Assembly (NCBI GenBank): GCA_002690995.1
Contig: NZGS01000103.1
Location: forward strand, 2,280-66,279
Direction: 5' to 3'
Source of the DNA: Rhodospirillaceae bacterium
GTDB taxonomy: Bacteria; Pseudomonadota; Alphaproteobacteria; Thalassobaculales; Thalassobaculaceae
DNA: 64,000 bases
The notes beneath the pieces were generated by a model that ran no database searches, was not told the DNA's origin, and saw nothing but the letters and a program-made list of their open reading frames with translations. The translations under genes and the position numbers were made by a program. Positions 3,580 through 59,917 of this stretch are shown one piece after another; positions within the stretch are counted from its first letter, which is position 1, and every line of letters begins with the position of its first letter.

Positions 3580-3981
3580 ATGAAATTAGATTATTCTTCC
3601 TTTAACAAAGAGTCGATGCGAAAACAATTGATTCTACAAAGAAACCGATTACTTTTTCAAAAACAAAAAGACGTACATACTCTTCAATATTTACTTTGGT
3701 ATAATTATTTTACGAAACCCATCTATACCCAAAAGAAGAGTTGTATTGATGCCATTGAAATATTAGCAAAATTGATGCATAATCCCTCGCAACCGACCAC
3801 ATTTTTTTCCAATGGAGATTTACGGCATGGAGAAATTTTAATTAAACCTGCTGTACAAAATAACTTTGTACAGGTCCGTTTGCCAAAACAAACGAAAGAA
3901 GGTTCTCTTGTCTCATGTCGACCTCAGGAAGGAGAATATCTTTCCCTGCTTTATGAGACATTGCGAGTATTACCAATATGA
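3580..3981 (+). CDS. hypothetical protein
   Basis: This 133-aa ORF occupies its own space. No motif was recognised. Confidence 0.4.
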   Translation: MKLDYSSFNKESMRKQLILQRNRLLFQKQKDVHTLQYLLWYNYFTKPIYTQKKSCIDAIEILAKLMHNPSQPTTFFSNGDLRHGEILIKPAVQNNFVQVRLPKQTKEGSLVSCRPQEGEYLSLLYETLRVLPI

Positions 3982-3990
3982 AAGTGCAAA

Positions 3991-4635
3991 TCAACCCTTT
4001 TGGTTATACAGGGACCGTTGATCATGCCGCTTCATATTGCATATGTGACACTTCCAACCCAAAAATTTATGGGTAACCGGATCATGATCTCGATGCCATC
4101 CGCGTCGATGCTCACGATTACAAGAGGGACAAATGTCACCAGACCGTGGTCGCGGAGGTATATTTTCATGTTCCCTTTGCAAAGTATTTTGACGTTCATC
4201 GTTCAACGTTTTCTCACACGTTTTGCAAATTGCGTTTAACCGAATATAATATCCATTCTTGTCAACACGATTTCTATAAAATCGAAAATTTTCGTGCGAC
4301 TGATGTGTCAGACATTCTCGACATTCCATCAGACTAGTGGGATATCCTTTCGAAAAAATAACTTCCAATGCGCTGTGCTCCTCTGAGTCGAGGATTTCTC
4401 TCGCCAAATCACCCATCTTGAATGTTTTTATCGTAGAAAGACCAAACAGCTTGGGATTTTCAGTATGAGAATTATAAGCATGACACAACCGTCTGAGGCG
4501 ATCTTCATCAGCCGACGAAGGACACTTTTGTAGTTGTTCCATTAGATGACTGAATAATTCCTCCTTTCGTTTTTCAGAATCAACACCGATCATTTGGACT
4601 ACTGAAAGATAAAACAAAACTTCAATTTTTATCAA
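3991..4635 (-). CDS. endonuclease VII-like (HNH/EndoVII fold) protein
   Basis: The C-terminal block CPSCNREHRRGWHRDHDPVTHKFLGWKCHICN fits the endonuclease VII pattern C-x2-C ... DHD-x2-T-x-K-x2-G-x2-C-x2-CN. The true start is probably the ATG at 4593 (MIGVDSEK), 29 nt below an AAAAATTGA motif. Confidence 0.5.
   Translation of the reverse strand: MIKIEVLFYLSVVQMIGVDSEKRKEELFSHLMEQLQKCPSSADEDRLRRLCHAYNSHTENPKLFGLSTIKTFKMGDLAREILDSEEHSALEVIFSKGYPTSLMECRECLTHQSHENFRFYRNRVDKNGYYIRLNAICKTCEKTLNDERQNTLQREHENIPPRPRSGDICPSCNREHRRGWHRDHDPVTHKFLGWKCHICNMKRHDQRSLYNQKG
4622..4630 (-). promoter_or_regulatory. AAAAATTGA early-promoter-type motif
   Basis: The plus strand reads TCAATTTTT. It lies 29 nt upstream of the in-frame ATG at 4593. 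Confidence 0.5.
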
Positions 4636-4640
4636 CAGAA

Positions 4641-5471
4641 CTAAAAAACGAATTTGGGACCTTCATTTGCTGATTTCGGAGATTTCAAATGAGATAAGAA
4701 GACCTCATCCAAGTCGCGAGTTTTTGTACCGAGAAAATAATTGCTAGTGTCCACTCCTTTTGTACGCAAATAGGAGTCATCAATCAGTTCGTTCCCTTTA
4801 AACGTTAAAGGGTTTTCATGAAAAAGAATTTCTTCAATCACATGAACCATAATTCTCGGATCCACACATTCTTCGCGTGAACCAATGTTGCGAAGTCGCA
4901 AAGCGTCGGTCCAAAGCGGATATTTGGTCCAAACGCTATTACAGCTAATATTATGGTAGCGTAGAACTCTGGCCATCGATTTCATGTATGTTGTTTGTGC
5001 AAGTTTACTTTGCATATAAGGTGTGAGGTACCTCACTTTATCGTCAATTTTGTACGTAGGAGAGGTATATACTAGATGACCATAGTTTTTCTTTTGCATC
5101 TGGGGCAAGAAATGTTCCGTCAGCATGATTGGTGCAAGTGTGTTGATTTGGAATAACTTTTGCAAATTTTGGTCCTTTTCATGTGCTCGTAGCGATAGAT
5201 AGCCCGCGTTAAAGATAAGAATATTCGGCTGAAACCCAGATTTGTACACGTTTTCTACAAATCGTGGAAATTTTTCCGGTTCCTCCATTTTTAGAGCCAT
5301 TCCCCGTAAAGCCTTTTGATTATTAAATTCCTTCTCAATTTGCTTTGTCTTAAAGTGGTCCGTTCCTGTAAATATGACCGGGATTTGACGATGATAGAGT
5401 GCATCCACAATCTGCCTACCAACCCCACGTGTGCCACCAAAAACAATTGCTTGCATTATTTGTTTTTCCAT
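4641..5471 (-). CDS. short-chain dehydrogenase/reductase (SDR)
   Basis: The glycine-rich NAD(P) motif is FGGTRGVGRQI. The NAG motif (IFNAGY) and the catalytic Y-x3-K (YMQSK) are both present. Confidence 0.8.
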   Translation of the reverse strand: MEKQIMQAIVFGGTRGVGRQIVDALYHRQIPVIFTGTDHFKTKQIEKEFNNQKALRGMALKMEEPEKFPRFVENVYKSGFQPNILIFNAGYLSLRAHEKDQNLQKLFQINTLAPIMLTEHFLPQMQKKNYGHLVYTSPTYKIDDKVRYLTPYMQSKLAQTTYMKSMARVLRYHNISCNSVWTKYPLWTDALRLRNIGSREECVDPRIMVHVIEEILFHENPLTFKGNELIDDSYLRTKGVDTSNYFLGTKTRDLDEVFLSHLKSPKSANEGPKFVF

Positions 5472-5534
5472 ATGATGAAATAAACAAAAAAATCATTTTT
5501 TCATTTAAGAAAAGGAAATATTAAAAAAAAGGGA

Positions 5535-7097
5535 ATGAAGATTCAATATTTATCGCTACACGCTTTAATATGGTTTTATTGTGTAAACTCTTATCACATG
5601 TTCGATAACTTTTCGCATTTTTCCCACGCACAATCAAAAAATGGAACAAAAAAAAATTTTATTGAAACCATTTTAATCCCCCTGCCGTTCAAACCAGAGC
5701 AGTTTATGTCACCGAACGATGATTTCTCGGATACGTTCCATGTAAAGTCAAAACCTGACAAAACTTTTCAAGATATCGGAGGCTATAAAGATATTAAAGA
5801 CGAGCTTTTACAACTTCGAGATATTTTTGACAAAAAGGAAATTTATAAGGAATATCGATTACGGACTCCCCGAGGAATCCTCTTGGAGGGTCCACCCGGA
5901 AATGGCAAAACCCTTATGGCAAAATGTTTTGCAGGTGAGTGTGATTTTTCGTTCATTGCTAGTTCCGGATCGGAGTTTAATGAAAAATACGTTGGCGTTG
6001 GTGCTGCACGTATGCGGAAATTATTCGAGACTGCACGCAAAAATCAACCGGCCGTTATTTTTATTGACGAACTCGATGTAATTGGTTCCAAACGTGTCAT
6101 TTCGGAGGATGGAGGAGGGTCCGAAAAATATCAAACCTTGAATCAGCTCTTAGTTTTGATGGATGGATTCGATAGTGCGAAAGATGATATTTTTGTTATC
6201 GGTGCAACGAACCGGAAAGATGTCCTAGATGAAGCTCTCTTGCGCTCGGGTCGTTTTGATAAAACGATCCATGTTCCAAATCCAGATGCGGAAACACGTC
6301 GTGAAATTATTCGGATCCATAGCCGTTATAAACCTTTAGACCCAGCAATTGATATGGAGGATATGGTGGAATTAACCGGTGGATTATCCGGTGCTGATAT
6401 CGAAAATTTGTTCAATGAAGCCTGTCTTAAAAATATTCGAGAAAATAAAATTCCAGTCCGACTTTCTGATTTGGAAAATATTCGTGAACGCTTTTTAGTA
6501 GGATATACCGTTCGAAAAAAAAATATCAACTTGGAAATGCACGAACGAATTGCTCATCATGAAGTGGGTCATTTATTAGTAGCCATGGCATGTCCTGAAC
6601 ATGAAAAACCTACAAAAATAACCATTCAAACCCCTGGAGAAACAACCCTCGGATATACTCAGTTCATGATTAAAAATGAAGTATTTCTCTTTAATAAAAC
6701 CTATTTGTTTGCTAAAATTAAAACACTTCTCGGCGGGTTGGTCGCCGAAAAAATAATGTATGACGATAATATTTCATCCGGTGCCATTGATGATTTGGAA
6801 CGTGTCAAAAAAATTGCCAGTGATATGGTTTTGAAATATCACATGTCGACCAAAGATGTCTACGCTCATCATAGTGAAGAATATAAACGTTGCGCGGATC
6901 AGCAAATCCAAAAACTCATTTTGGATGCGAAACAATCCGTCACACAACTTCTTTCTGCAAATAAGAAACTACTATGTTTTCTTTCAAAAGAATTGCTCGA
7001 ACACAAAACCATTGAAAAAAAAAACCTACTCAAAACAATTGAACGAGGTCTACTTCAGCACCCCTCCAACGACTTTCCTAATCTACCTCCTCAATAA
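5535..7097 (+). CDS. FtsH-like AAA+ ATPase / zinc metalloprotease, paralog 2
   Basis: Motifs are [35 protein letters not shown] and HEVGH. Long identical runs are shared with paralog 1 ([31 protein letters not shown]). There is a single N-terminal hydrophobic segment. Confidence 0.9.
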
Positions 7098-54290: not shown

Positions 54291-54830
54291 ATGGAATGTG
54301 TCGTATGTTTCGAACCAACGCAGGTTCAAACAGAATGCAAACATCTCCTTTGCCATCCTTGTCAGAATTCCTTACAGAAAGCCGAATGTCCCTACTGTCG
54401 GCAAGTCATTCGGGTTTGGGATCATCAAGACATTAAGATGCCATTTTATTATTTTACAGAAATGTGCTATGAACATTACCGAAAAAATGTGACCTATCAT
54501 TGTTTAAAAATAGGTTCCGAAATTCCTGATGTTTTATCCGAAAACAATTGCTTTATTTTTCATAATCCATTTCATAATTGCCCATTTACTGAAAATTATG
54601 AAAAATTAATAACCGTACGTATCTTCAACCTCACCATCAACCGCCGAGCGATAAAGATTGAGTTTCAAACTCTGGGTTTGGACGCCGAACGAAATCGCCA
54701 TTACATGACAATTCGTTATGACGAACATGATTCAAATTCGTTCGCATATTGGGTTCGTCAAAACAAGAAAATCAGAAATTACTGGGATCAAGCAGTCCGC
54801 CAATATCAGGATTCCAGGGATGGACAATAG
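54291..54830 (+). CDS. RING-finger protein
   Basis: The C3HC4 pattern is CVVCFEPTQVQTECKHLLCHPCQNSLQKAECPYCRQ. Confidence 0.65.
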   Translation: MECVVCFEPTQVQTECKHLLCHPCQNSLQKAECPYCRQVIRVWDHQDIKMPFYYFTEMCYEHYRKNVTYHCLKIGSEIPDVLSENNCFIFHNPFHNCPFTENYEKLITVRIFNLTINRRAIKIEFQTLGLDAERNRHYMTIRYDEHDSNSFAYWVRQNKKIRNYWDQAVRQYQDSRDGQ

Positions 54831-56026
54831 TAAGAGGATAGTCGTTGACCATCATGCATGATTGGAAAATTTGGTACACGAACGTTATTCTCATAGACAT
54901 AGTTTATATTGACAAAATCTCCGCTGTCATTTCTTAAAAATAAATATTCCATTGATAAAATGTCATAAATTTGATTATCATTTCCAAAACATGGAATTTG
55001 AATTTCATTTCCAAATAAATCAACATTCTCCTCGTTTGGAATTGGTCTTTTTTTGCTTTCCTGGTAATTTATTTTCAAAATCTTGATAATCGAACTCCTA
55101 TGAAGGGAGGCTGAATTTATTTTGAATTTACTTGTAAGATACTCTGCCAAAAAGTTTGTCGCCACTAGTTTTAGCTTGTCCGCGTTACATGTTTCAAGAT
55201 AGTTTCGCAAATACATCCCTTGGCGAATATAACCATTTTCCGAAGAGGATGACGACCGGTTAAAGTGGAGAATCGGAACTACAAATTCTCTTGATCTCCT
55301 TGATGTACGATTACTAAAACTATTCTTATGAAACAAACGCCCCCCTGCACATGAAAATCCATCTTTGAACTTCCCTTCAAATATTAAATATTGCTGTTCC
55401 ATATCGAACAACTGTCCTTCTCCGTTCGGAAATCCATTTCGGAAGGAACCATCATAGACAAGCTTCCCATTGATAAAGAATCGCGCTCTTCCATGACAAG
55501 CGTCATTTCGGAAATCGCCTTCCAGATACGTTTCATTGCCATCAACGTAGTATATTCCTTTTCCGGACTTTAAATTGTTTTGGAATGCACCATGATAGAC
55601 AAGTCGACAGTCCTCGGTGTACTCCGAGCCTAAACCATGACGTTGATCCATTTTCCAATTTCCTTTATAGGTTCGAATCCCTCTTGACCAGGACTGGCCC
55701 TCACCATGACGTTTGTCCTTACGCCACTGACCTTCATAGATACGCGGATCACGATCAGGTTCTTCTATATTTAATCGTTGCAATAATTCCACCACTTCTT
55801 CATGTTGTGGATCATATTGCGTGCCAATTCCGTGACGCTCATTGCGGTAAAAAGATCCATGGTAGAATTTCTGTCCGTTTTCATAAAGCGTTCCAATGCC
55901 ATATTTTCCGTCTGGTCCGTACTTCCCCTGAAAATGCAAATTATTCGCCGCGTCGAGAAATTGTCCGTCGTAATAAGTTTTCTCTTTTCGAATTCGTTTC
56001 TTTCCAATAAATTTACAGTTTTCCAT
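54806..56026 (-). CDS. MORN-repeat protein
   Basis: There are multiple Y-x-G-x-[FW]-x-x-x-x-x-x-G-x-G units, for example YDGQFLDAANNLHFQGKY, YHGSFYRNERHGIGT, YEGQWRKDKRHGEGQ, YKGNWKMDQRHGLGS and YHGAFQNNLKSGKGI. Confidence 0.85.
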   Translation of the reverse strand: MENCKFIGKKRIRKEKTYYDGQFLDAANNLHFQGKYGPDGKYGIGTLYENGQKFYHGSFYRNERHGIGTQYDPQHEEVVELLQRLNIEEPDRDPRIYEGQWRKDKRHGEGQSWSRGIRTYKGNWKMDQRHGLGSEYTEDCRLVYHGAFQNNLKSGKGIYYVDGNETYLEGDFRNDACHGRARFFINGKLVYDGSFRNGFPNGEGQLFDMEQQYLIFEGKFKDGFSCAGGRLFHKNSFSNRTSRRSREFVVPILHFNRSSSSSENGYIRQGMYLRNYLETCNADKLKLVATNFLAEYLTSKFKINSASLHRSSIIKILKINYQESKKRPIPNEENVDLFGNEIQIPCFGNDNQIYDILSMEYLFLRNDSGDFVNINYVYENNVRVPNFPIMHDGQRLSSYYCPSLES

Positions 56027-56162: not shown

Positions 56163-58298
56163 TTAATTCAAGACAGGAGCGACAAGGTCTTTGATAGCAA
56201 GACCCACATTTCTACCAATGGTACTATAATCCTTTTCGTCAAGATTTGCAAAACTGATCCGGAAACGCCACGGGGTGGTGCCGAAACCAGAACCAGGTAA
56301 AAGAATAGTATTGTATTTCGCAACAAGATGGAACAAAAACTCGAGGTCTTCATATTCCTGTACTATGTACTTTGAGGCTCTTTCCCCAAAAATATTGCTG
56401 GTTATTTCTGGGATATTGATCAAGTCGTAGTAGTCGGTCCTGGTAGGTTTTATATTTACCTTGGTCTTCAACTGCGCATAAAAGCTCTGCATTCTTCTTC
56501 TTAAAATTTTCTTGATGGTATTTCGGTAAGGTTCTCCTTTCTTGCGGTCCATGATATCAAAGTAAAGCATAATCGATAGCAGAGTTTGCTGAGGCGTTGA
56601 GAGACCACCAACATGCGCTTGGGAAATCAGACGACTATCAAAGACAACTCGTTCCATGAACGATAATGTAGATGGATGAAGAGTCACAGTTTCATAACGC
56701 TTCTCCAATACTTTTTTGTACTTCTGAGGGAGACCCTTCAAGATATTATTGATGCGATTATTTTTGGCAACCATACATAATCCTAAACGCCATCCGGTTG
56801 TTCCAAAATATTTACTGACTGAGTATACCGTAATCGTATTTAAAGGACACGACAACATGAAAGAATTGTATTGGTCGGAAAAACCTGCATACACATTGTC
56901 CGAAAGGATAATTAGATCCATGCGTTCCGTGTTTACAATGTGGCCGATACGATCAACATTTTCTTTCGAAAGTGAAAAGGCAGCGGGGTTAGAAGGATTT
57001 ACCATAAAAAGAGCCTTGATACTTTTATCCTTGAGTTTATCAATCTCGGAATCATCAAGGGAGTAGTCATTGTCCGGATTGCACTTCAACTCTACAATCT
57101 CAAGATTATAGTCGGAAAGACGAGGCATTTCCAGATAGGGACTAAAGATTGGTGTCACAAGAGCAATCTTATCCCTCGGAAGCAATATGTAGTTCTTTTG
57201 CAATGTGTTAAATATATAGAGAATGGCAGCTGCTGCACCTTCGGTGGCAAAACATTCAAAATCGTTAGCGTTCATTTTTGTACCAGGTTCATTTCCCATA
57301 GCTGCTGTCATGGCAAGATTGTAGAAAAACTCTTGTGCGACAAGTGATAAATGAGGCTGAATTTGCGGAGGAGAAGGATAGACACATCCAAGAGCAGATT
57401 GTACAACATCAAGCATAATTGTATCTACATGGTGCTTCTCTGCCTTTGCACGCTTGGTAAGATACTTGAGATAGCCTTTAAAAAAAGAACGTTCCTTCTT
57501 GCCCCACCTGGAACTTTGATTTAATAAAACTTTGTAGTAATTATGTCGTCCTTTAACGGGATATGTTGCAATATCTGTTGCAACCGGCGTTGCGATCGAC
57601 ATGGCGGCTTTTTGTAATTCGGCGAACACATTCCTGCAGAACGAATTGTAAAAATTAGGGTTACCTCGACCGGCGTCAAGTGCATTGCGTCCTGCCATTT
57701 GAATCAATTTAGAATTAAGCTCAAATGGAGAGAGGACGTCAAGTTTTTCAAATAATGGCTTCGGTATCCTTTTGACCATTGATCTGAGACCTTCTTGTTG
57801 AATAATAAACGGAAATTGTTGCTTTCTAAAAAAAAGGATGTGGATGTGGAAATAGGGGACACGATTTCCATGTATGAGAATAAATACATAATCTTTTTTT
57901 TTTAAAGCTTGTTCGATCTGCTCTGCGACGTATTTCCACAATTCCTTCTTTTGTTTGAGCGAAGCACCTTCACAAAATAGGCGAAAATGCGCAAAATTTT
58001 TTCCTGCCTTTGGTATGGGCACAACCAAAATATCAGATTCAGAAGGATTTGCAAAATGTGTTGCATATTTTTTTCCTTCCTTTTCTGCTTTGTTAATGTG
58101 TTCTCGGTATGTAGTGAAATCCTGTTTCGTTGGGAGTCGACCGGTTTTCTTCCAAATTTGTTTATAGGTAGTATTTTTTTTTCTATCACAGCATGATGTT
58201 TCAAAATAAAACCCATTCCTCTTGGACAATGTAGACTGTGGAGTATCCGGAAAATCTCTCCCATTTTTCCATTGAGAAAGTTTTTTGGACCATTGCAT
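56163..58298 (-). CDS. PLP-dependent class I/II aminotransferase-fold enzyme (aspartate 4-decarboxylase-like) with about 190-aa N-terminal HIT-like extension
   Basis: The C-terminal roughly 520 aa carry NALDAGRGNPNF, MVNPSNPAAF, SVSKYFGTTGWRLG (PLP lysine) and LPGSGFG. The N-terminal part carries ILVVPIPKAG and HGNRVPYFHIHILF. Confidence 0.75.
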   Translation of the reverse strand: MQWSKKLSQWKNGRDFPDTPQSTLSKRNGFYFETSCCDRKKNTTYKQIWKKTGRLPTKQDFTTYREHINKAEKEGKKYATHFANPSESDILVVPIPKAGKNFAHFRLFCEGASLKQKKELWKYVAEQIEQALKKKDYVFILIHGNRVPYFHIHILFFRKQQFPFIIQQEGLRSMVKRIPKPLFEKLDVLSPFELNSKLIQMAGRNALDAGRGNPNFYNSFCRNVFAELQKAAMSIATPVATDIATYPVKGRHNYYKVLLNQSSRWGKKERSFFKGYLKYLTKRAKAEKHHVDTIMLDVVQSALGCVYPSPPQIQPHLSLVAQEFFYNLAMTAAMGNEPGTKMNANDFECFATEGAAAAILYIFNTLQKNYILLPRDKIALVTPIFSPYLEMPRLSDYNLEIVELKCNPDNDYSLDDSEIDKLKDKSIKALFMVNPSNPAAFSLSKENVDRIGHIVNTERMDLIILSDNVYAGFSDQYNSFMLSCPLNTITVYSVSKYFGTTGWRLGLCMVAKNNRINNILKGLPQKYKKVLEKRYETVTLHPSTLSFMERVVFDSRLISQAHVGGLSTPQQTLLSIMLYFDIMDRKKGEPYRNTIKKILRRRMQSFYAQLKTKVNIKPTRTDYYDLINIPEITSNIFGERASKYIVQEYEDLEFLFHLVAKYNTILLPGSGFGTTPWRFRISFANLDEKDYSTIGRNVGLAIKDLVAPVLN

Positions 58299-58435
58299 TT
58301 ATCGTACAGTAAAAAAAATTATTTATGAACAAATCGTAGTGTATATCTGTTAATTTCCCAAAAAAAAAAATAGTATCGATGTCAAAGTGAAGACAATCAA
58401 AAAACAAAAAAATATTGAAAAGTATGATATAAAAC

Positions 58436-59251
58436 ATGAAACCAAATCCATATTTGGATATAGTGCCCATCAGTCTCATGCTTGTAGTCCTCCTACTGGT
58501 TTCCGTCTTTGTTCGTACTCGAGTCCTTCCACAAGTAGAACTGCCTTATTTTCAAACGATGCAAGAATTCGAGAATAGTCCTTGGAGAGATTATTATTTA
58601 AACGTGTATGGCAATCTTCCAACGACGCCTCCAAATCCTGCAGATCTATGGATGATTTACACGAAAATATATAACAAGGTATTCAAAACCAATTTAAAAA
58701 CCTCGATTTACTCCATAATTTGTCCTTCACGACAAAATGAGTTGTATTCCAACATGTCTCGTACGAACGATATACCAGAAACAATATGGTTATACAAAAA
58801 GCCGCCCTATCAACCGTTGCCTTCCAACAGTTGGGTGGAAATATCACATTGTGCAAACAAAGTTGCAAAAAATCGTGAAAAAGTAGGTGCATGGTATTAT
58901 TATGCACCTGGATCGGGCGTATATTTGAATTTAGGAAAAACCAAAGTGTATCAAAAACATCCTAACGCTGTCAAAGATATACTAAAGGAAACGTGCTTCG
59001 ATTCCGAATGCGATAAATTTTATCCAAAGTTATTCAAAACAGCCAAAGAACAAGGGTATGATACTATACAATTTTTGAATCACAATGATATGCGGTGCGG
59101 CAACACTGCCATTGAAATTGTCGATACGGCCGGTGTTGGAACCTTTGCCTGTGGTGACTCAAAACAAGGAAAATTTAAAACTGGGTATGAGGCGACACTC
59201 CCATGCGTTTGTGATAACAAAAAATTATGCTCGAATTGCGGAATGAAATGA
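58436..59251 (+). CDS. hypothetical type II membrane protein, Cys-rich C-terminus
   Basis: The 271-aa product has the N-terminal helix IVPISLMLVVLLLVSVFV. Confidence 0.4.
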   Translation: MKPNPYLDIVPISLMLVVLLLVSVFVRTRVLPQVELPYFQTMQEFENSPWRDYYLNVYGNLPTTPPNPADLWMIYTKIYNKVFKTNLKTSIYSIICPSRQNELYSNMSRTNDIPETIWLYKKPPYQPLPSNSWVEISHCANKVAKNREKVGAWYYYAPGSGVYLNLGKTKVYQKHPNAVKDILKETCFDSECDKFYPKLFKTAKEQGYDTIQFLNHNDMRCGNTAIEIVDTAGVGTFACGDSKQGKFKTGYEATLPCVCDNKKLCSNCGMK

Positions 59252-59320: not shown

Positions 59321-59917
59321 TTATTTGAAGATAATTACGGTTTTTTCATTTTCCCAAAGATACATATTTGCGAGTAGAAATCCTTTTCGGTTGCGTAGTG
59401 GAAATTCAAAATTCTTTCGAAGCAAGGATTGAATATAAGGAAAATCTTCATCACGATATCGTAAGATGATCATCCCCTCGTCATCTAGTAAAGGATATGT
59501 ATTTTCCAACATTCTCTGAATATTTACATATTCAGAGATTTGAATTACTTGGAGATTATGTTCCATTGCTTCCGCGCCTTTTTCGATATCACGGCAAGAA
59601 AAAAAAGTATGACTATATTTCTGACGGGCTGCATTGATTGCACTTTGATTTTTGTCAATACCAACGACTTGCAAATCTGGAAATAGACTTTGCAAACGAC
59701 ATGTGGAATCCCCTGTATAACAGTTCACATCTAGACCTAATCCACCTTGAAATCGTTCGACCAATCGGGGCAAAATTGGTGTCAAGGACGAACGCAATTC
59801 GGTCATTTTCTCAATCGGATTCGCGACCAAGAAAAGCGGAAAGAACTTTGGAAAAATTTTCATATTGCTACAAAGAAATAGATTAAAAAGTAGTTTTATA
59901 AGATGAATAATAATCAA
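59321..59917 (-). CDS. class I SAM-dependent methyltransferase
   Basis: Motif I-like is GLDVNCYTGDSTCRL and motif II-like is QVVGIDKNQSAINAA. The start may be the internal MKIFPK. Confidence 0.6.
   Translation of the reverse strand: MIIIHLIKLLFNLFLCSNMKIFPKFFPLFLVANPIEKMTELRSSLTPILPRLVERFQGGLGLDVNCYTGDSTCRLQSLFPDLQVVGIDKNQSAINAARQKYSHTFFSCRDIEKGAEAMEHNLQVIQISEYVNIQRMLENTYPLLDDEGMIILRYRDEDFPYIQSLLRKNFEFPLRNRKGFLLANMYLWENEKTVIIFK

What the first reader, a model, noticed from the sequence alone, without database searches (positions are those of the whole stretch)
56163..58298. Aspartate-4-decarboxylase-like PLP enzyme fused to a HIT-like N-terminal domain
Roughly the C-terminal 520 residues carry the class I aminotransferase hallmarks (NPSNP, SVSK with the PLP lysine) and GRGNPNF. 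I associate GRGNPNF with the aspartate aminotransferase / L-aspartate beta-decarboxylase subgroup, an enzyme type that is rare outside bacteria. The first roughly 190 residues are an extra domain whose segments ILVVPIPKAG and HGNRVPYFHIHILF resemble a histidine-triad (HIT) nucleotide hydrolase/transferase, with the first His replaced by Tyr. I do not know of a described HIT-PLP fusion. It might couple nucleotide (adenylyl) chemistry with amino-acid decarboxylation or transamination.
Basis: partly seen in the sequence, partly recalled or inferred. Interest (0 to 1): 0.6.

Follow-up and report, generated by a model that had tools for sequence, protein, structure and literature searches.

The report
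Giant-virus HIT-like domain fused to aspartate decarboxylase
A marine giant virus, wrongly filed inside a bacterial genome bin, encodes one 711-residue protein that joins a divergent histidine-triad-like domain (Pfam DUF6940) to a complete aspartate 4-decarboxylase; the fusion is real but was found in this virus only, and whether the two halves work together is unknown.

Summary
Window 56163-58298 (-) is one uninterrupted 711-codon ORF with an in-frame stop directly before its ATG.

- **AsdA domain.** Residues ~189-704 pass both NCBIfam equivalog cut-offs for aspartate 4-decarboxylase. They align end to end with solved AsdA structures and keep all hallmark residues.
- **N-terminal domain.** Residues 1-~160 are Pfam DUF6940. 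A confident AlphaFold model (pLDDT 90) matches HIT-superfamily structures almost exclusively (GalT, HINT, FHIT, DcpS). A profile-profile alignment (92.9%; controls <=0.4%) puts Y149-x-H151-x-H153 on the H-x-H-x-H triad. The family consensus is Y-x-H-x-R, and only the middle, nucleophile-position His is invariant.
- **The fusion is real.** Contigs from two independent marine metagenome studies bridge the junction with no differences.
- **The fusion is lineage-specific.** 35 other giant-virus AsdA loci and 18 DUF6940 loci lack it. Elsewhere DUF6940 is fused to a kinase, Cu/Zn-SOD and other partners.
- **A second link.** The virus's second DUF6940 copy lies directly upstream of its only other class I/II PLP enzyme (aminotransferase-DapB).

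The contig is giant-virus DNA binned with a 42%-GC bacterium. New domain architecture, moderate interest.

The parts
56163..58298 (-). Whole fusion ORF: 711 codons plus TAA stop (56163-56165)
   Evidence: An in-frame stop lies directly upstream at 58299-58301.
58299..58435 (-). A/T-rich upstream spacer, the likely promoter region of the fusion gene
   Evidence: The 50 nt before the ATG are 78% A/T. The median for 337 gene starts of this virus is 80%; for internal ATGs it is 62%.
57819..58298 (-). N-terminal DUF6940 domain (res 1-160) with a HIT-like fold
   Evidence: Pfam PF22086, 71-74 bits against a 27-bit cut-off. AF2 model pLDDT 90.3. HIT-superfamily structural matches. hhalign to HIT 92.9%.
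58002..58031 (-). ILVVPIPKAG strand (res 90-99), holding the family-invariant P94 and near-invariant P96
   Evidence: Aligns with the 'HvLViPK' strand of HIT proteins. Conservation.
57834..57854 (-). Y149-F-H151-I-H153-I-L155, the counterpart of the H-x-H-x-H-x-x histidine triad
   Evidence: hhalign register. H151 is invariant in 60 family members. Position 153 is Arg in >=90% of them but His here.
57735..57818 (-). Linker and fusion junction (res 161-188), containing Met174 (57777-57779)
   Evidence: Res 167-178 have pLDDT <50. Homology to the paralog ends near res 170. Homology to unfused viral AsdA begins at VKRIPK, res 175. Independent contigs bridge the junction.
56166..57734 (-). Aspartate 4-decarboxylase (AsdA) domain, res 189-711
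   Evidence: NF006755 507.7 bits, TIGR03801 465.8 bits. PDB 2zy2/3fdd E ~1e-97 over chain residues 10-514.
57666..57668 (-). R211 in GRGNPNF, aligned with Arg37 of solved bacterial AsdA
   Evidence: Alignment; position.
56811..56813 (-). K496 in S-V-S-K-Y-F-G, the PLP Schiff-base lysine
   Evidence: Aligned to SFSKYFG of 2zy2; position.
56259..56261 (-). R680 in R-I-S-F-A-N-L, the C-terminal substrate-carboxylate arginine of class I aminotransferase-fold enzymes
   Evidence: Aligned to R-A-S-L-A-N-L of 2zy2. Invariant in 20 viral AsdA sequences.

Best explanation
This is a genuine, lineage-specific in-frame gene fusion in a marine giant virus (phylum Nucleocytoviricota). The C-terminal ~520 residues are a complete aspartate 4-decarboxylase. 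It most likely converts L-aspartate to L-alanine plus CO2 with PLP, like the unfused AsdA genes that are widespread in related giant-virus MAGs. The N-terminal ~160 residues are a DUF6940 domain. The work here shows that DUF6940 is a divergent member of the HIT (histidine triad) superfamily. It keeps the nucleophile-position His (H151), but the family motif is Y-x-H-x-R, read Y-x-H-x-H in this copy.

The fusion most likely arose by a deletion. That deletion removed the ~21-residue tail of a DUF6940 gene, the spacer, and the ~20-residue basic leader that unfused viral AsdA proteins carry. The two domains are left joined by a ~28-residue flexible linker.

Inferred, not shown: the HIT-like domain is a nucleotide- or phosphate-binding module, probably a hydrolase or transferase. 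It works as a portable accessory domain, since in other giant viruses it is fused to a kinase, Cu/Zn-SOD, a helicase domain and DUF5771. It is probably not a dedicated catalytic partner of AsdA.
For: ORF and motifs. AsdA identity: equivalog HMMs above cut-off; full-length alignment to solved AsdA with R37, PLP-Lys and C-terminal Arg equivalents conserved; 186 of 198 columns that are >=90% conserved in 19 viral relatives are retained. It is the only AsdA in the assembly.

N-domain: Pfam DUF6940; AF2 pLDDT 90.3. Foldseek's top rows are GalT/HINT/FHIT at probability 0.9-0.99. VIA-align ranks 1-27 are all HIT-superfamily, with Z 8.4 (GalT, 148 aa) and Z 8.2 (HIT, rmsd 2.3 A over 93 aa) at the top. 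hhalign gives 92.9%, E 3.7e-7, with the triad in register; controls score <=0.4%. 14 of 15 invariant or near-invariant family positions are kept.

Fusion real: independent contigs bridge the junction; the start context is typical of this virus's genes.

Fusion derived and unique: the nearest AsdA relatives (79-50% identity) are 523-602 codons stop-to-stop and have no DUF6940 within 4 kb. No other fused form appeared in a region-restricted search of 5.8 billion proteins or among 150 DUF6940 cluster representatives. A stand-alone paralog, 60% identical, lies on contig C67 of the same virus.

Promiscuous fusions of DUF6940.

Giant-virus origin: C962R-type primase, HSP70 and PCNA in the window; a separate low-GC tetranucleotide cluster of ~17 contigs; relatives lie on GVMAG contigs.
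Against: No expression or protein evidence exists, so the fusion protein has not been shown to be made or active. The canonical H-x-H-x-H motif is incomplete, and no Pfam HIT model matches at E <= 1, so catalytic competence of the N-domain is inferred only. This copy departs from the family at the near-invariant Arg153 and lacks the PKYY motif, which could mean relaxed constraint. Structural Z-scores of 6-8 are in a range the tool calls 'middling'; the case rests on the uniformity of the hits plus the profile alignment. The fusion is known from one viral population only, so purifying selection on the fused state cannot be assessed. The adjacency of the second DUF6940 copy to another PLP enzyme argues against the 'independent module' part of the statement.
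Confidence: 0.8

Rival explanations
1. The two halves are functionally coupled. In this virus the HIT-like domain is a dedicated partner of fold-type-I PLP enzymes that act on aspartate-family amino acids. It might sense or hydrolyse a nucleotide or acyl-nucleotide that controls the PLP enzyme, or supply its substrate. The fusion would then be a 'Rosetta stone' for that partnership.
For: The virus has two DUF6940 copies and, by the TIGR03801 scan, two class I/II aminotransferase-fold genes on its contigs. Each DUF6940 copy lies directly 5' of one of them on the same strand: fused to AsdA on C121, and ~500 nt upstream of an aminotransferase-DapB fusion on C67. With ~377 genes in the viral contigs, the second adjacency has a chance expectation of well under 1%. 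Independent assemblies of the same virus reproduce the C67 arrangement.
Against: The pairing is not seen elsewhere: 0 of 18 other DUF6940 loci have an AsdA or aminotransferase within 5 kb, and 0 of 35 AsdA loci have DUF6940 within 4 kb. DUF6940 is fused to unrelated enzymes in other viruses. The linker is predicted to be disordered. No known chemistry links HIT enzymes to AsdA. Assigning C67 and C121 to one virus rests on composition only.
Confidence: 0.12
2. The fusion is a recent, neutral or mildly harmful accident, and the functional products are effectively separate. AsdA is made from the internal Met174 through an internal promoter or leaky scanning, and the DUF6940 part is on its way to decay.
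For: Met174 lies one residue before the point where homology to unfused AsdA starts. The 50 nt before it are 68% A/T, above the median for internal ATGs (62%). This DUF6940 copy carries R153H and has lost the PKYY motif. An intact stand-alone paralog exists.
Against: With no stop codon, translation from ATG-1 must give the fusion, and ATG-1 has the typical gene-start context (78% A/T). The fused copy keeps 14 of 15 conserved positions, including invariant P94 and H151, after diverging 40% from its paralog, which argues for continued selection. The 68% A/T before Met174 is below the 25th percentile (72%) of real gene starts.
Confidence: 0.1
3. The N-domain is a non-catalytic HIT-fold scaffold, for example an oligomerisation, localisation or virion-packaging module, that giant viruses attach to diverse enzymes.
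For: Fusion partners are diverse: kinase, Cu/Zn-SOD, helicase C-terminal domain, DUF5771 and proteins with no Pfam match. The triad is incomplete in the whole family. In this protein it replaces the basic N-terminal leader that unfused viral AsdA proteins carry.
Against: Family-wide invariance of the His at exactly the HIT nucleophile position, a near-invariant Arg two residues later, and a conserved H-G and P-x-P around the predicted active-site strands are what a working ligand-binding or catalytic site would show.
Confidence: 0.3

Closest known systems
Bacterial L-aspartate 4(beta)-decarboxylase AsdA (PDB 2ZY2-2ZY5 Alcaligenes, 3FDD Pseudomonas; TIGR03801 / NF006755)
   Same: Colinear over the whole enzyme (chain residues 10-514, E ~1e-97). 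It shares GRGNPNF with the Arg37 equivalent, the YP-x-PP motif, NPSNP, D-x-V-Y, the S-x-S-K-Y-F-G PLP lysine and the C-terminal R-x-S-x-A-N.
   Different: It carries a ~170-residue N-terminal HIT-like domain and linker that no solved or bacterial AsdA has. It belongs to a giant-virus clade only distantly similar to the bacterial enzymes (tblastn matches of 32% identity in the 'phages' collection; no identity to the solved structures was computed). Oligomeric state (dodecamer in bacteria, from my own knowledge) and activity are untested.
Unfused giant-virus AsdA genes on GVMAG and marine metagenome contigs (e.g. P0003-P0013, 79-80% identical; L050-L062)
   Same: Same enzyme clade; 186 of 198 highly conserved columns are shared; same kind of genome.
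   Different: Those proteins are 523-602 aa and start with a ~20-residue highly basic leader (MSTRKHGKKRDRK...). Here a DUF6940 domain replaces the leader. Gene neighbourhoods are not syntenic with the window.
Pfam DUF6940 (PF22086), mostly stand-alone 160-200-aa giant-virus proteins, including the paralog at G000:C67:20115-20702
   Same: Above the gathering score. W3, W10, G13, P20, T34, F82, L91, P94, P96, F108, W121, G144, V147 and H151 are retained. 60% identical to the paralog.
   Different: Arg153 is replaced by His, the PKYY motif is lost, the C-terminal tail is replaced by AsdA, and it is the only member found fused to a PLP enzyme.
HIT superfamily (HINT/FHIT branch, Pfam PF01230; GalT branch, e.g. 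PDB 1HXQ, 6K5Z; DcpS; aprataxin)
   Same: Alpha+beta HIT fold. The 'LVIP' strand and the motif strand are in register, and the His at the nucleophile position is conserved. The whole 1-168 model superposes on a GalT half-domain (Z 8.4 over 148 residues).
   Different: The motif is Y-x-H-x-R/H rather than H-x-H-x-H (HINT/FHIT) or H-x-H-x-Q (GalT; this motif is from my own knowledge). No Pfam HIT model matches. There is an extra ~60-residue N-terminal segment. Substrate and activity are unknown.

Membership tests
Aspartate 4-decarboxylase (AsdA, TIGR03801 / NF006755) | Score above the curated equivalog cut-off, with full-length coverage of the model | tested here: met
   NF006755: 507.7 bits (cut-off 321), model positions 6-519 of 530. 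TIGR03801: 465.8 bits (cut-off 435.1), positions 1-516 of 521. The next family scores 90 bits.
Aspartate 4-decarboxylase (AsdA, TIGR03801 / NF006755) | PLP Schiff-base lysine, plus the Asp and Asn that hold the cofactor in class I aminotransferase-fold enzymes | tested here: met
   K496 in SVSKYFG, D467/Y470 in SDNVY and NPSNP 434-438 all align with the same motifs of 2zy2.
Aspartate 4-decarboxylase (AsdA, TIGR03801 / NF006755) | N-terminal GRGNPNF arginine (Arg37 of solved AsdA) and C-terminal carboxylate-binding arginine | tested here: met
   R211 and R680 align with the corresponding Arg of 2zy2 and are invariant in 20 viral homologs. Their roles are from my recollection of the AsdA structure papers and were not re-read here.
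Aspartate 4-decarboxylase (AsdA, TIGR03801 / NF006755) | Catalyses Asp -> Ala + CO2; dodecameric assembly | not testable with these tools
   Needs enzyme assay and SEC-MALS or cryo-EM.
Pfam DUF6940 (PF22086) | HMM score above the gathering threshold | tested here: met
   71.2 bits (whole protein) and 74.2 bits (res 1-200) against a 27-bit cut-off, model positions 2-154 of 168.
Pfam DUF6940 (PF22086) | Family-invariant and near-invariant residues (P94, H151; W3, W10, G13, P20, T34, F82, L91, P96, F108, W121, G144, V147, R153) | tested here: inconclusive
   14 of 15 are present. Near-invariant Arg153 is His in this copy, and the consensus PKYY is absent.
HIT superfamily | HIT alpha+beta fold | tested here: met
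   AF2 model pLDDT 90.3. Foldseek's top rows are GalT, HINT2 and FHIT at probability 0.9-0.99, E from 6e-3. VIA-align ranks 1-27 are all HIT-superfamily, Z 8.4-4.0.
HIT superfamily | Sequence-profile relationship to bona fide HIT proteins | tested here: met
   hhalign of the 60-sequence DUF6940 profile against 23 bacterial PF01230 proteins: probability 92.9%, E 3.7e-7, 77 columns. An unrelated profile and reversed or shuffled controls score <=0.4%.
HIT superfamily | Complete histidine triad H-phi-H-phi-H-phi-phi | tested here: not met
   The window reads Y149-F-H151-I-H153-I-L; the family consensus is Y-L-H-V-R-I. Only the middle His is invariant.
HIT superfamily | Match to the Pfam HIT model PF01230 | tested here: not met
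   No HIT-clan family is listed for res 1-200 at E <= 1.
HIT superfamily | Nucleotide binding and a covalent nucleotidyl-His intermediate | not testable with these tools
   Needs biochemistry (H151A mutant, nucleotide soaking).

The most novel reading that the evidence does not exclude
DUF6940 is a previously unrecognised HIT-superfamily enzyme of giant viruses that, in this lineage, has been recruited as a dedicated partner of PLP enzymes of aspartate-family metabolism. It is fused to AsdA at one locus and paired with an aminotransferase-DapB fusion at another. Nucleotide or acyl-nucleotide chemistry would then gate or feed viral reprogramming of host aspartate, alanine and diaminopimelate/lysine-type metabolism.
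Probability: 0.12. Interest if true: 0.7.

Novelty: new variant of a known kind. Interest (0 to 1): 0.45.

Why it matters
This work does three things.

First, it gives a structural and evolutionary identity to a Pfam 'domain of unknown function' that is confined, as far as sampled, to giant-virus sequences. DUF6940 is a HIT-superfamily domain with an altered Y-x-H-x-R motif. That suggests concrete substrates to test, such as nucleoside-monophosphate conjugates, cap analogues and dinucleoside polyphosphates.

Second, it shows that aspartate 4-decarboxylase, usually thought of as bacterial, is common in marine giant-virus MAGs. In one relative an asparaginase lies ~5 kb away. This points to viral manipulation of host Asn/Asp/Ala pools, which I did not find discussed in the searchable literature.

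Third, the fusion, together with the second DUF6940-PLP-enzyme pairing in the same virus, gives a testable lead for what DUF6940 does.

The limits are plain. The fusion is known from one viral population, nothing shows expression, and the most economical reading is an accessory domain joined by a flexible linker.

The finding also flags about 0.46 Mb of giant-virus DNA inside a bacterial species-representative MAG.

Tried and rejected
- **Sequence search of res 1-190 against PDB.** Only a chance hit turned up (adenovirus penton, E 0.48). The DUF6940 profile against PDB gave only gamma-butyrobetaine dioxygenase at E 0.18 over 50 residues. I rejected it: no HxD...H triad is conserved, and the fold searches disagree.
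- **ESM Atlas feature search.** It suggested relaxase/MobA-like clusters (0.90-0.92, ~150 shared features), and the structure rows had TM <0.4. This is within the tool's stated chance range and is contradicted by the Foldseek, VIA and hhalign results. Rejected.
- **Complex prediction, two copies of the N-domain.** 'No answer' (score 0.03 against a mark of 0.42). This is neither for nor against dimerisation.
- **Full-length AlphaFold run.** Not submitted. The domain-interface question therefore stays open.
- **Expression.** No RNA holder was listed for this stretch, so nothing can be said about expression.
- **Promoter word search.** Over 377 viral genes it gave only generic A/T-rich words and no sharp motif. 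Only A/T content could be compared.
- **Suspected tRNA in the C67 spacer.** ARAGORN found none, in L046 or in the window.
- **The search for related loci.** Smaller or closer alignments worked.
- **Conservation of the C67 pairing.** The only diverged relative (L098, 74% identity) is cut by its contig end 112 nt upstream of the gene, so this could not be tested.
- **Literature searches.** 'DUF6940'; 'aspartate 4-decarboxylase' + 'giant virus'; 'histidine triad' + 'Nucleocytoviricota'; and 'aspartate decarboxylase' + 'giant viruses' + 'metabolic genes' all returned nothing. The AsdA structure papers were not found in the library, so residue roles are from memory.
- **The 'phages' collection.** It holds only distant (32%) AsdA matches in unannotated records.
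Full report
**What is there.** Window 56163-58298 (minus strand) is a single 711-codon ORF. A TAA lies in frame immediately before the ATG, and no other Met occurs before residue 174. The 50 nt upstream are 78% A/T, typical of gene starts in this genome (median 80%, n=337; internal ATGs have a median of 62%).

**Whose genome.** The window is contig C121 of a 3.48-Mb, 154-contig assembly held as a prokaryote species representative (93.9% complete, 1.1% 'contamination'). About 17 contigs (0.46 Mb, GC 35-39%) form a separate tetranucleotide cluster from the 42%-GC majority. The window encodes a C962R-type primase-helicase, HSP70, PCNA, and RING and MORN proteins. Relatives of both domains lie on GVMAG contigs of IMG/VR. 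So this is giant-virus DNA binned with a bacterium. An earlier follow-up on the heliorhodopsin gene of this window reached the same conclusion.

**C-terminal part.** Residues ~184-704 exceed the curated equivalog cut-offs of both NCBIfam aspartate 4-decarboxylase models: 507.7 against 321 bits, and 465.8 against 435.1 bits. The next best family scores 90 bits. The domain aligns colinearly with the solved AsdA structures 2ZY2 and 3FDD (E ~1e-97, chain residues 10-514). The following are conserved:
- R211 in GRGNPNF (Arg37 of the solved enzyme)
- Y307 in YPSPP
- NPSNP
- D467-x-x-Y470
- the PLP lysine K496 in SVSKYFG
- R680 in R-I-S-F-A-N

It shares 186 of 198 columns that are >=90% conserved in 19 viral homologs. 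It is the only AsdA in the assembly. Its membership of the AsdA family is as firm as sequence can make it; activity is inferred.

**AsdA is common in giant viruses.** The nearest homologs (79-50% identity) are 523-602 aa proteins on contigs with NCLDV-type content: Eco57I-type methyltransferase, PIF1, SNase, PolB, P11_C and DUF5760. 31 IMG/VR loci carry a homolog, most of them GVMAGs. The unfused viral proteins begin with a ~20-residue strongly basic leader followed by VKRIPK...LSPFELN. On one contig an asparaginase lies ~5 kb from AsdA.

**N-terminal part.** Residues 3-153 match Pfam DUF6940 (71-74 bits, cut-off 27). No HIT-clan model matches.

An exhaustive search of 1.8 billion cluster representatives finds 214 DUF6940 clusters. 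Most are stand-alone proteins of 160-200 aa. Some are fused to a protein kinase, Cu/Zn-SOD, DUF5771 or a helicase C-terminal domain.

A 60-sequence alignment shows invariant P94 and H151, and near-invariant W3, W10, G13, P20, T34, F82, L91, P96, F108, W121, G144, V147 and R153. The motif consensus is V-P-Y-L-H-V-R-I...P-K-Y-Y. The window's copy keeps 14 of these 15 positions. It has His at 153 and lacks PKYY.

AlphaFold2 with this alignment gives pLDDT 90.3 and pTM 0.86, with residues 167-178 disordered. The fold comparisons agree with each other:
- Foldseek against the PDB returns GalT, ADP-glucose phosphorylase, HINT2 and FHIT at probability 0.9-0.99 (E from 6e-3).
- The Foldseek-independent VIA-align search of 48,161 chains puts HIT-superfamily entries in all of ranks 1-27. 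The top entries are GalT (Z 8.4 over 148 residues) and a HIT protein (Z 8.2, rmsd 2.3 A over 93 residues). DcpS, aprataxin, Ap4A phosphorylase and DUF4931 follow.

Because these Z values are moderate, I tested the relationship by sequence profiles. I extracted 23 PF01230 proteins from bacterial genomes and aligned them as a profile to the DUF6940 profile. The result was 92.9% probability, E 3.7e-7, over 77 columns. An unrelated profile and reversed or column-shuffled HIT profiles gave <=0.4%.

The alignment places 'iLViP-P' on the HIT 'HvLViPK' strand, and V-P-Y-L-H-V-R-I on V-P-H-x-H-x-H-phi. That gives Tyr149 = first His, H151 = middle (nucleophilic) His, and position 153 = third His. The qualification is that the family as a whole has Arg at the third position, and this copy has reverted to His.

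**The fusion.** Homology to the stand-alone paralog (60% identity; G000:C67:20115-20702) runs to about residue 170. Homology to unfused AsdA starts at residue 175. Only ~4 residues are of unclear origin. A simple deletion would produce this, by removing the tail of an upstream DUF6940 gene, the spacer and the AsdA leader.

Contigs from two other marine metagenome studies bridge the junction without a single difference (X4 57749-58058; X5 57655-57852), and the probable source run covers the whole gene. The full 711-aa protein is already present in public protein collections.

The fusion was found nowhere else:
- 0 of 35 giant-virus AsdA loci have a DUF6940 match within 4 kb or an extended reading frame, and 0 of 18 DUF6940 loci have an AsdA or aminotransferase within 5 kb.
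- A region-restricted search of 5.8 billion proteins for long proteins carrying this N-domain returned only the window's own entry.

All close AsdA relatives are unfused, so the fused state is derived.

**An unexpected second link.** On C67 the stand-alone DUF6940 paralog is followed, ~500 nt downstream on the same strand, by a 608-aa ORF. That ORF combines a class I/II aminotransferase domain (E 1e-33) with DapB N- and C-terminal domains. By the TIGR03801 scan, AsdA and this gene are the only aminotransferase-fold genes on the virus-like contigs, and each is directly preceded by one of the only two DUF6940 copies.

With ~377 genes in these contigs, a chance adjacency is unlikely, well under 1% by a rough count. 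Independent assemblies of the same virus reproduce the arrangement. It could not be tested in a diverged relative, and it is absent around DUF6940 genes of other viruses.

I therefore keep 'functional coupling with PLP enzymes' as a minority hypothesis (~12%) rather than the main reading.

**How it most likely works.**
- *Shown:* a two-domain protein with a flexible linker, an intact AsdA catalytic apparatus, and a HIT-fold domain that keeps the nucleophile-position His.
- *Inferred:* the AsdA moiety decarboxylates L-aspartate to L-alanine in the infected cell, as in the unfused viral clade. The HIT-like domain binds, and probably hydrolyses or transfers, a nucleoside-monophosphate-containing ligand. 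It behaves as a portable accessory module.
- *Unknown:* whether it regulates, localises or merely accompanies AsdA.

**Verdict.** The item is a new domain architecture built from known kinds, found in a single viral population. Added value comes from assigning DUF6940 to the HIT superfamily and from the unreported giant-virus AsdA clade. Interest is moderate (0.45).

Noticed in passing
G000:C67:21207-23033 (+) = L046:4208-6034: A 608-aa giant-virus ORF fuses a class I/II PLP aminotransferase domain (res 15-351) to dihydrodipicolinate reductase DapB N- and C-terminal domains (res 406-586). This is a possible two-step diaminopimelate/lysine-type module, unusual for a virus. It lies directly downstream of the stand-alone DUF6940 paralog (C67:20115-20702). 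A 74%-identical relative is on GVMAG-M-3300025880-17 (L098).
   Followed up: partly
G000 contigs C4, C12, C35, C52, C53, C67, C76, C85, C92, C111, C118, C121, C123, C131, C145, C147, C148: About 0.46 Mb of GC 35-39% giant-virus contigs are binned into a 42%-GC bacterial MAG that serves as a species representative. Marker-based contamination (1.14%) does not detect them.
   Followed up: partly
P0124, P0126, P0137, P0192 (DUF6940 family members): DUF6940 is fused N-terminally to a protein kinase (698 aa), Cu/Zn superoxide dismutase (352 aa) and DUF5771, and sits before a helicase C-terminal domain. Several other members carry it C-terminally after regions with no Pfam match. It is a promiscuous giant-virus domain.
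   Followed up: partly
L035:15205-16398 (ncbi GCA_003359175.1 PVMK01121438.1): An asparaginase gene lies ~5 kb from an unfused viral AsdA on a contig that also carries PolB, DHFR, UCH and RING genes. This suggests an Asn -> Asp -> Ala route in some giant viruses. The window's own virus contigs have no asparaginase; the only one in the assembly is on bacterial contig C133.
   Followed up: partly
P0003, P0005, P0014, P0034 N-termini; L001:6001-6070: Unfused giant-virus AsdA proteins share a ~20-residue Lys/Arg-rich N-terminal leader that bacterial AsdA lacks and that DUF6940 replaces here. It could be a localisation or nucleic-acid-binding tail.
   Followed up: no
L078:3860-5604 (IMGVR_UViG_3300008470_000080): The AsdA homolog there is split into two overlapping reading frames (3860-4996 and 4882-5604), so it looks like a frameshifted or broken copy.
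   Followed up: no
L046:3704-4207 (G000:C67:20703-21206): The ~500-nt spacer between the DUF6940 paralog and the aminotransferase-DapB gene is unusually long for this virus. It has a locally GC-richer core, no ORF over 63 codons and no tRNA.
   Followed up: partly
window 58436-59251 (+) and 59321-59917 (-): The genes flanking the fusion's upstream side are a 271-aa Cys-rich ORF with no Pfam match and a small SAM-methyltransferase-like ORF. Downstream is a 406-aa MORN-repeat protein (54806-56026). None is syntenic with the neighbourhoods of unfused viral AsdA genes.
   Followed up: no
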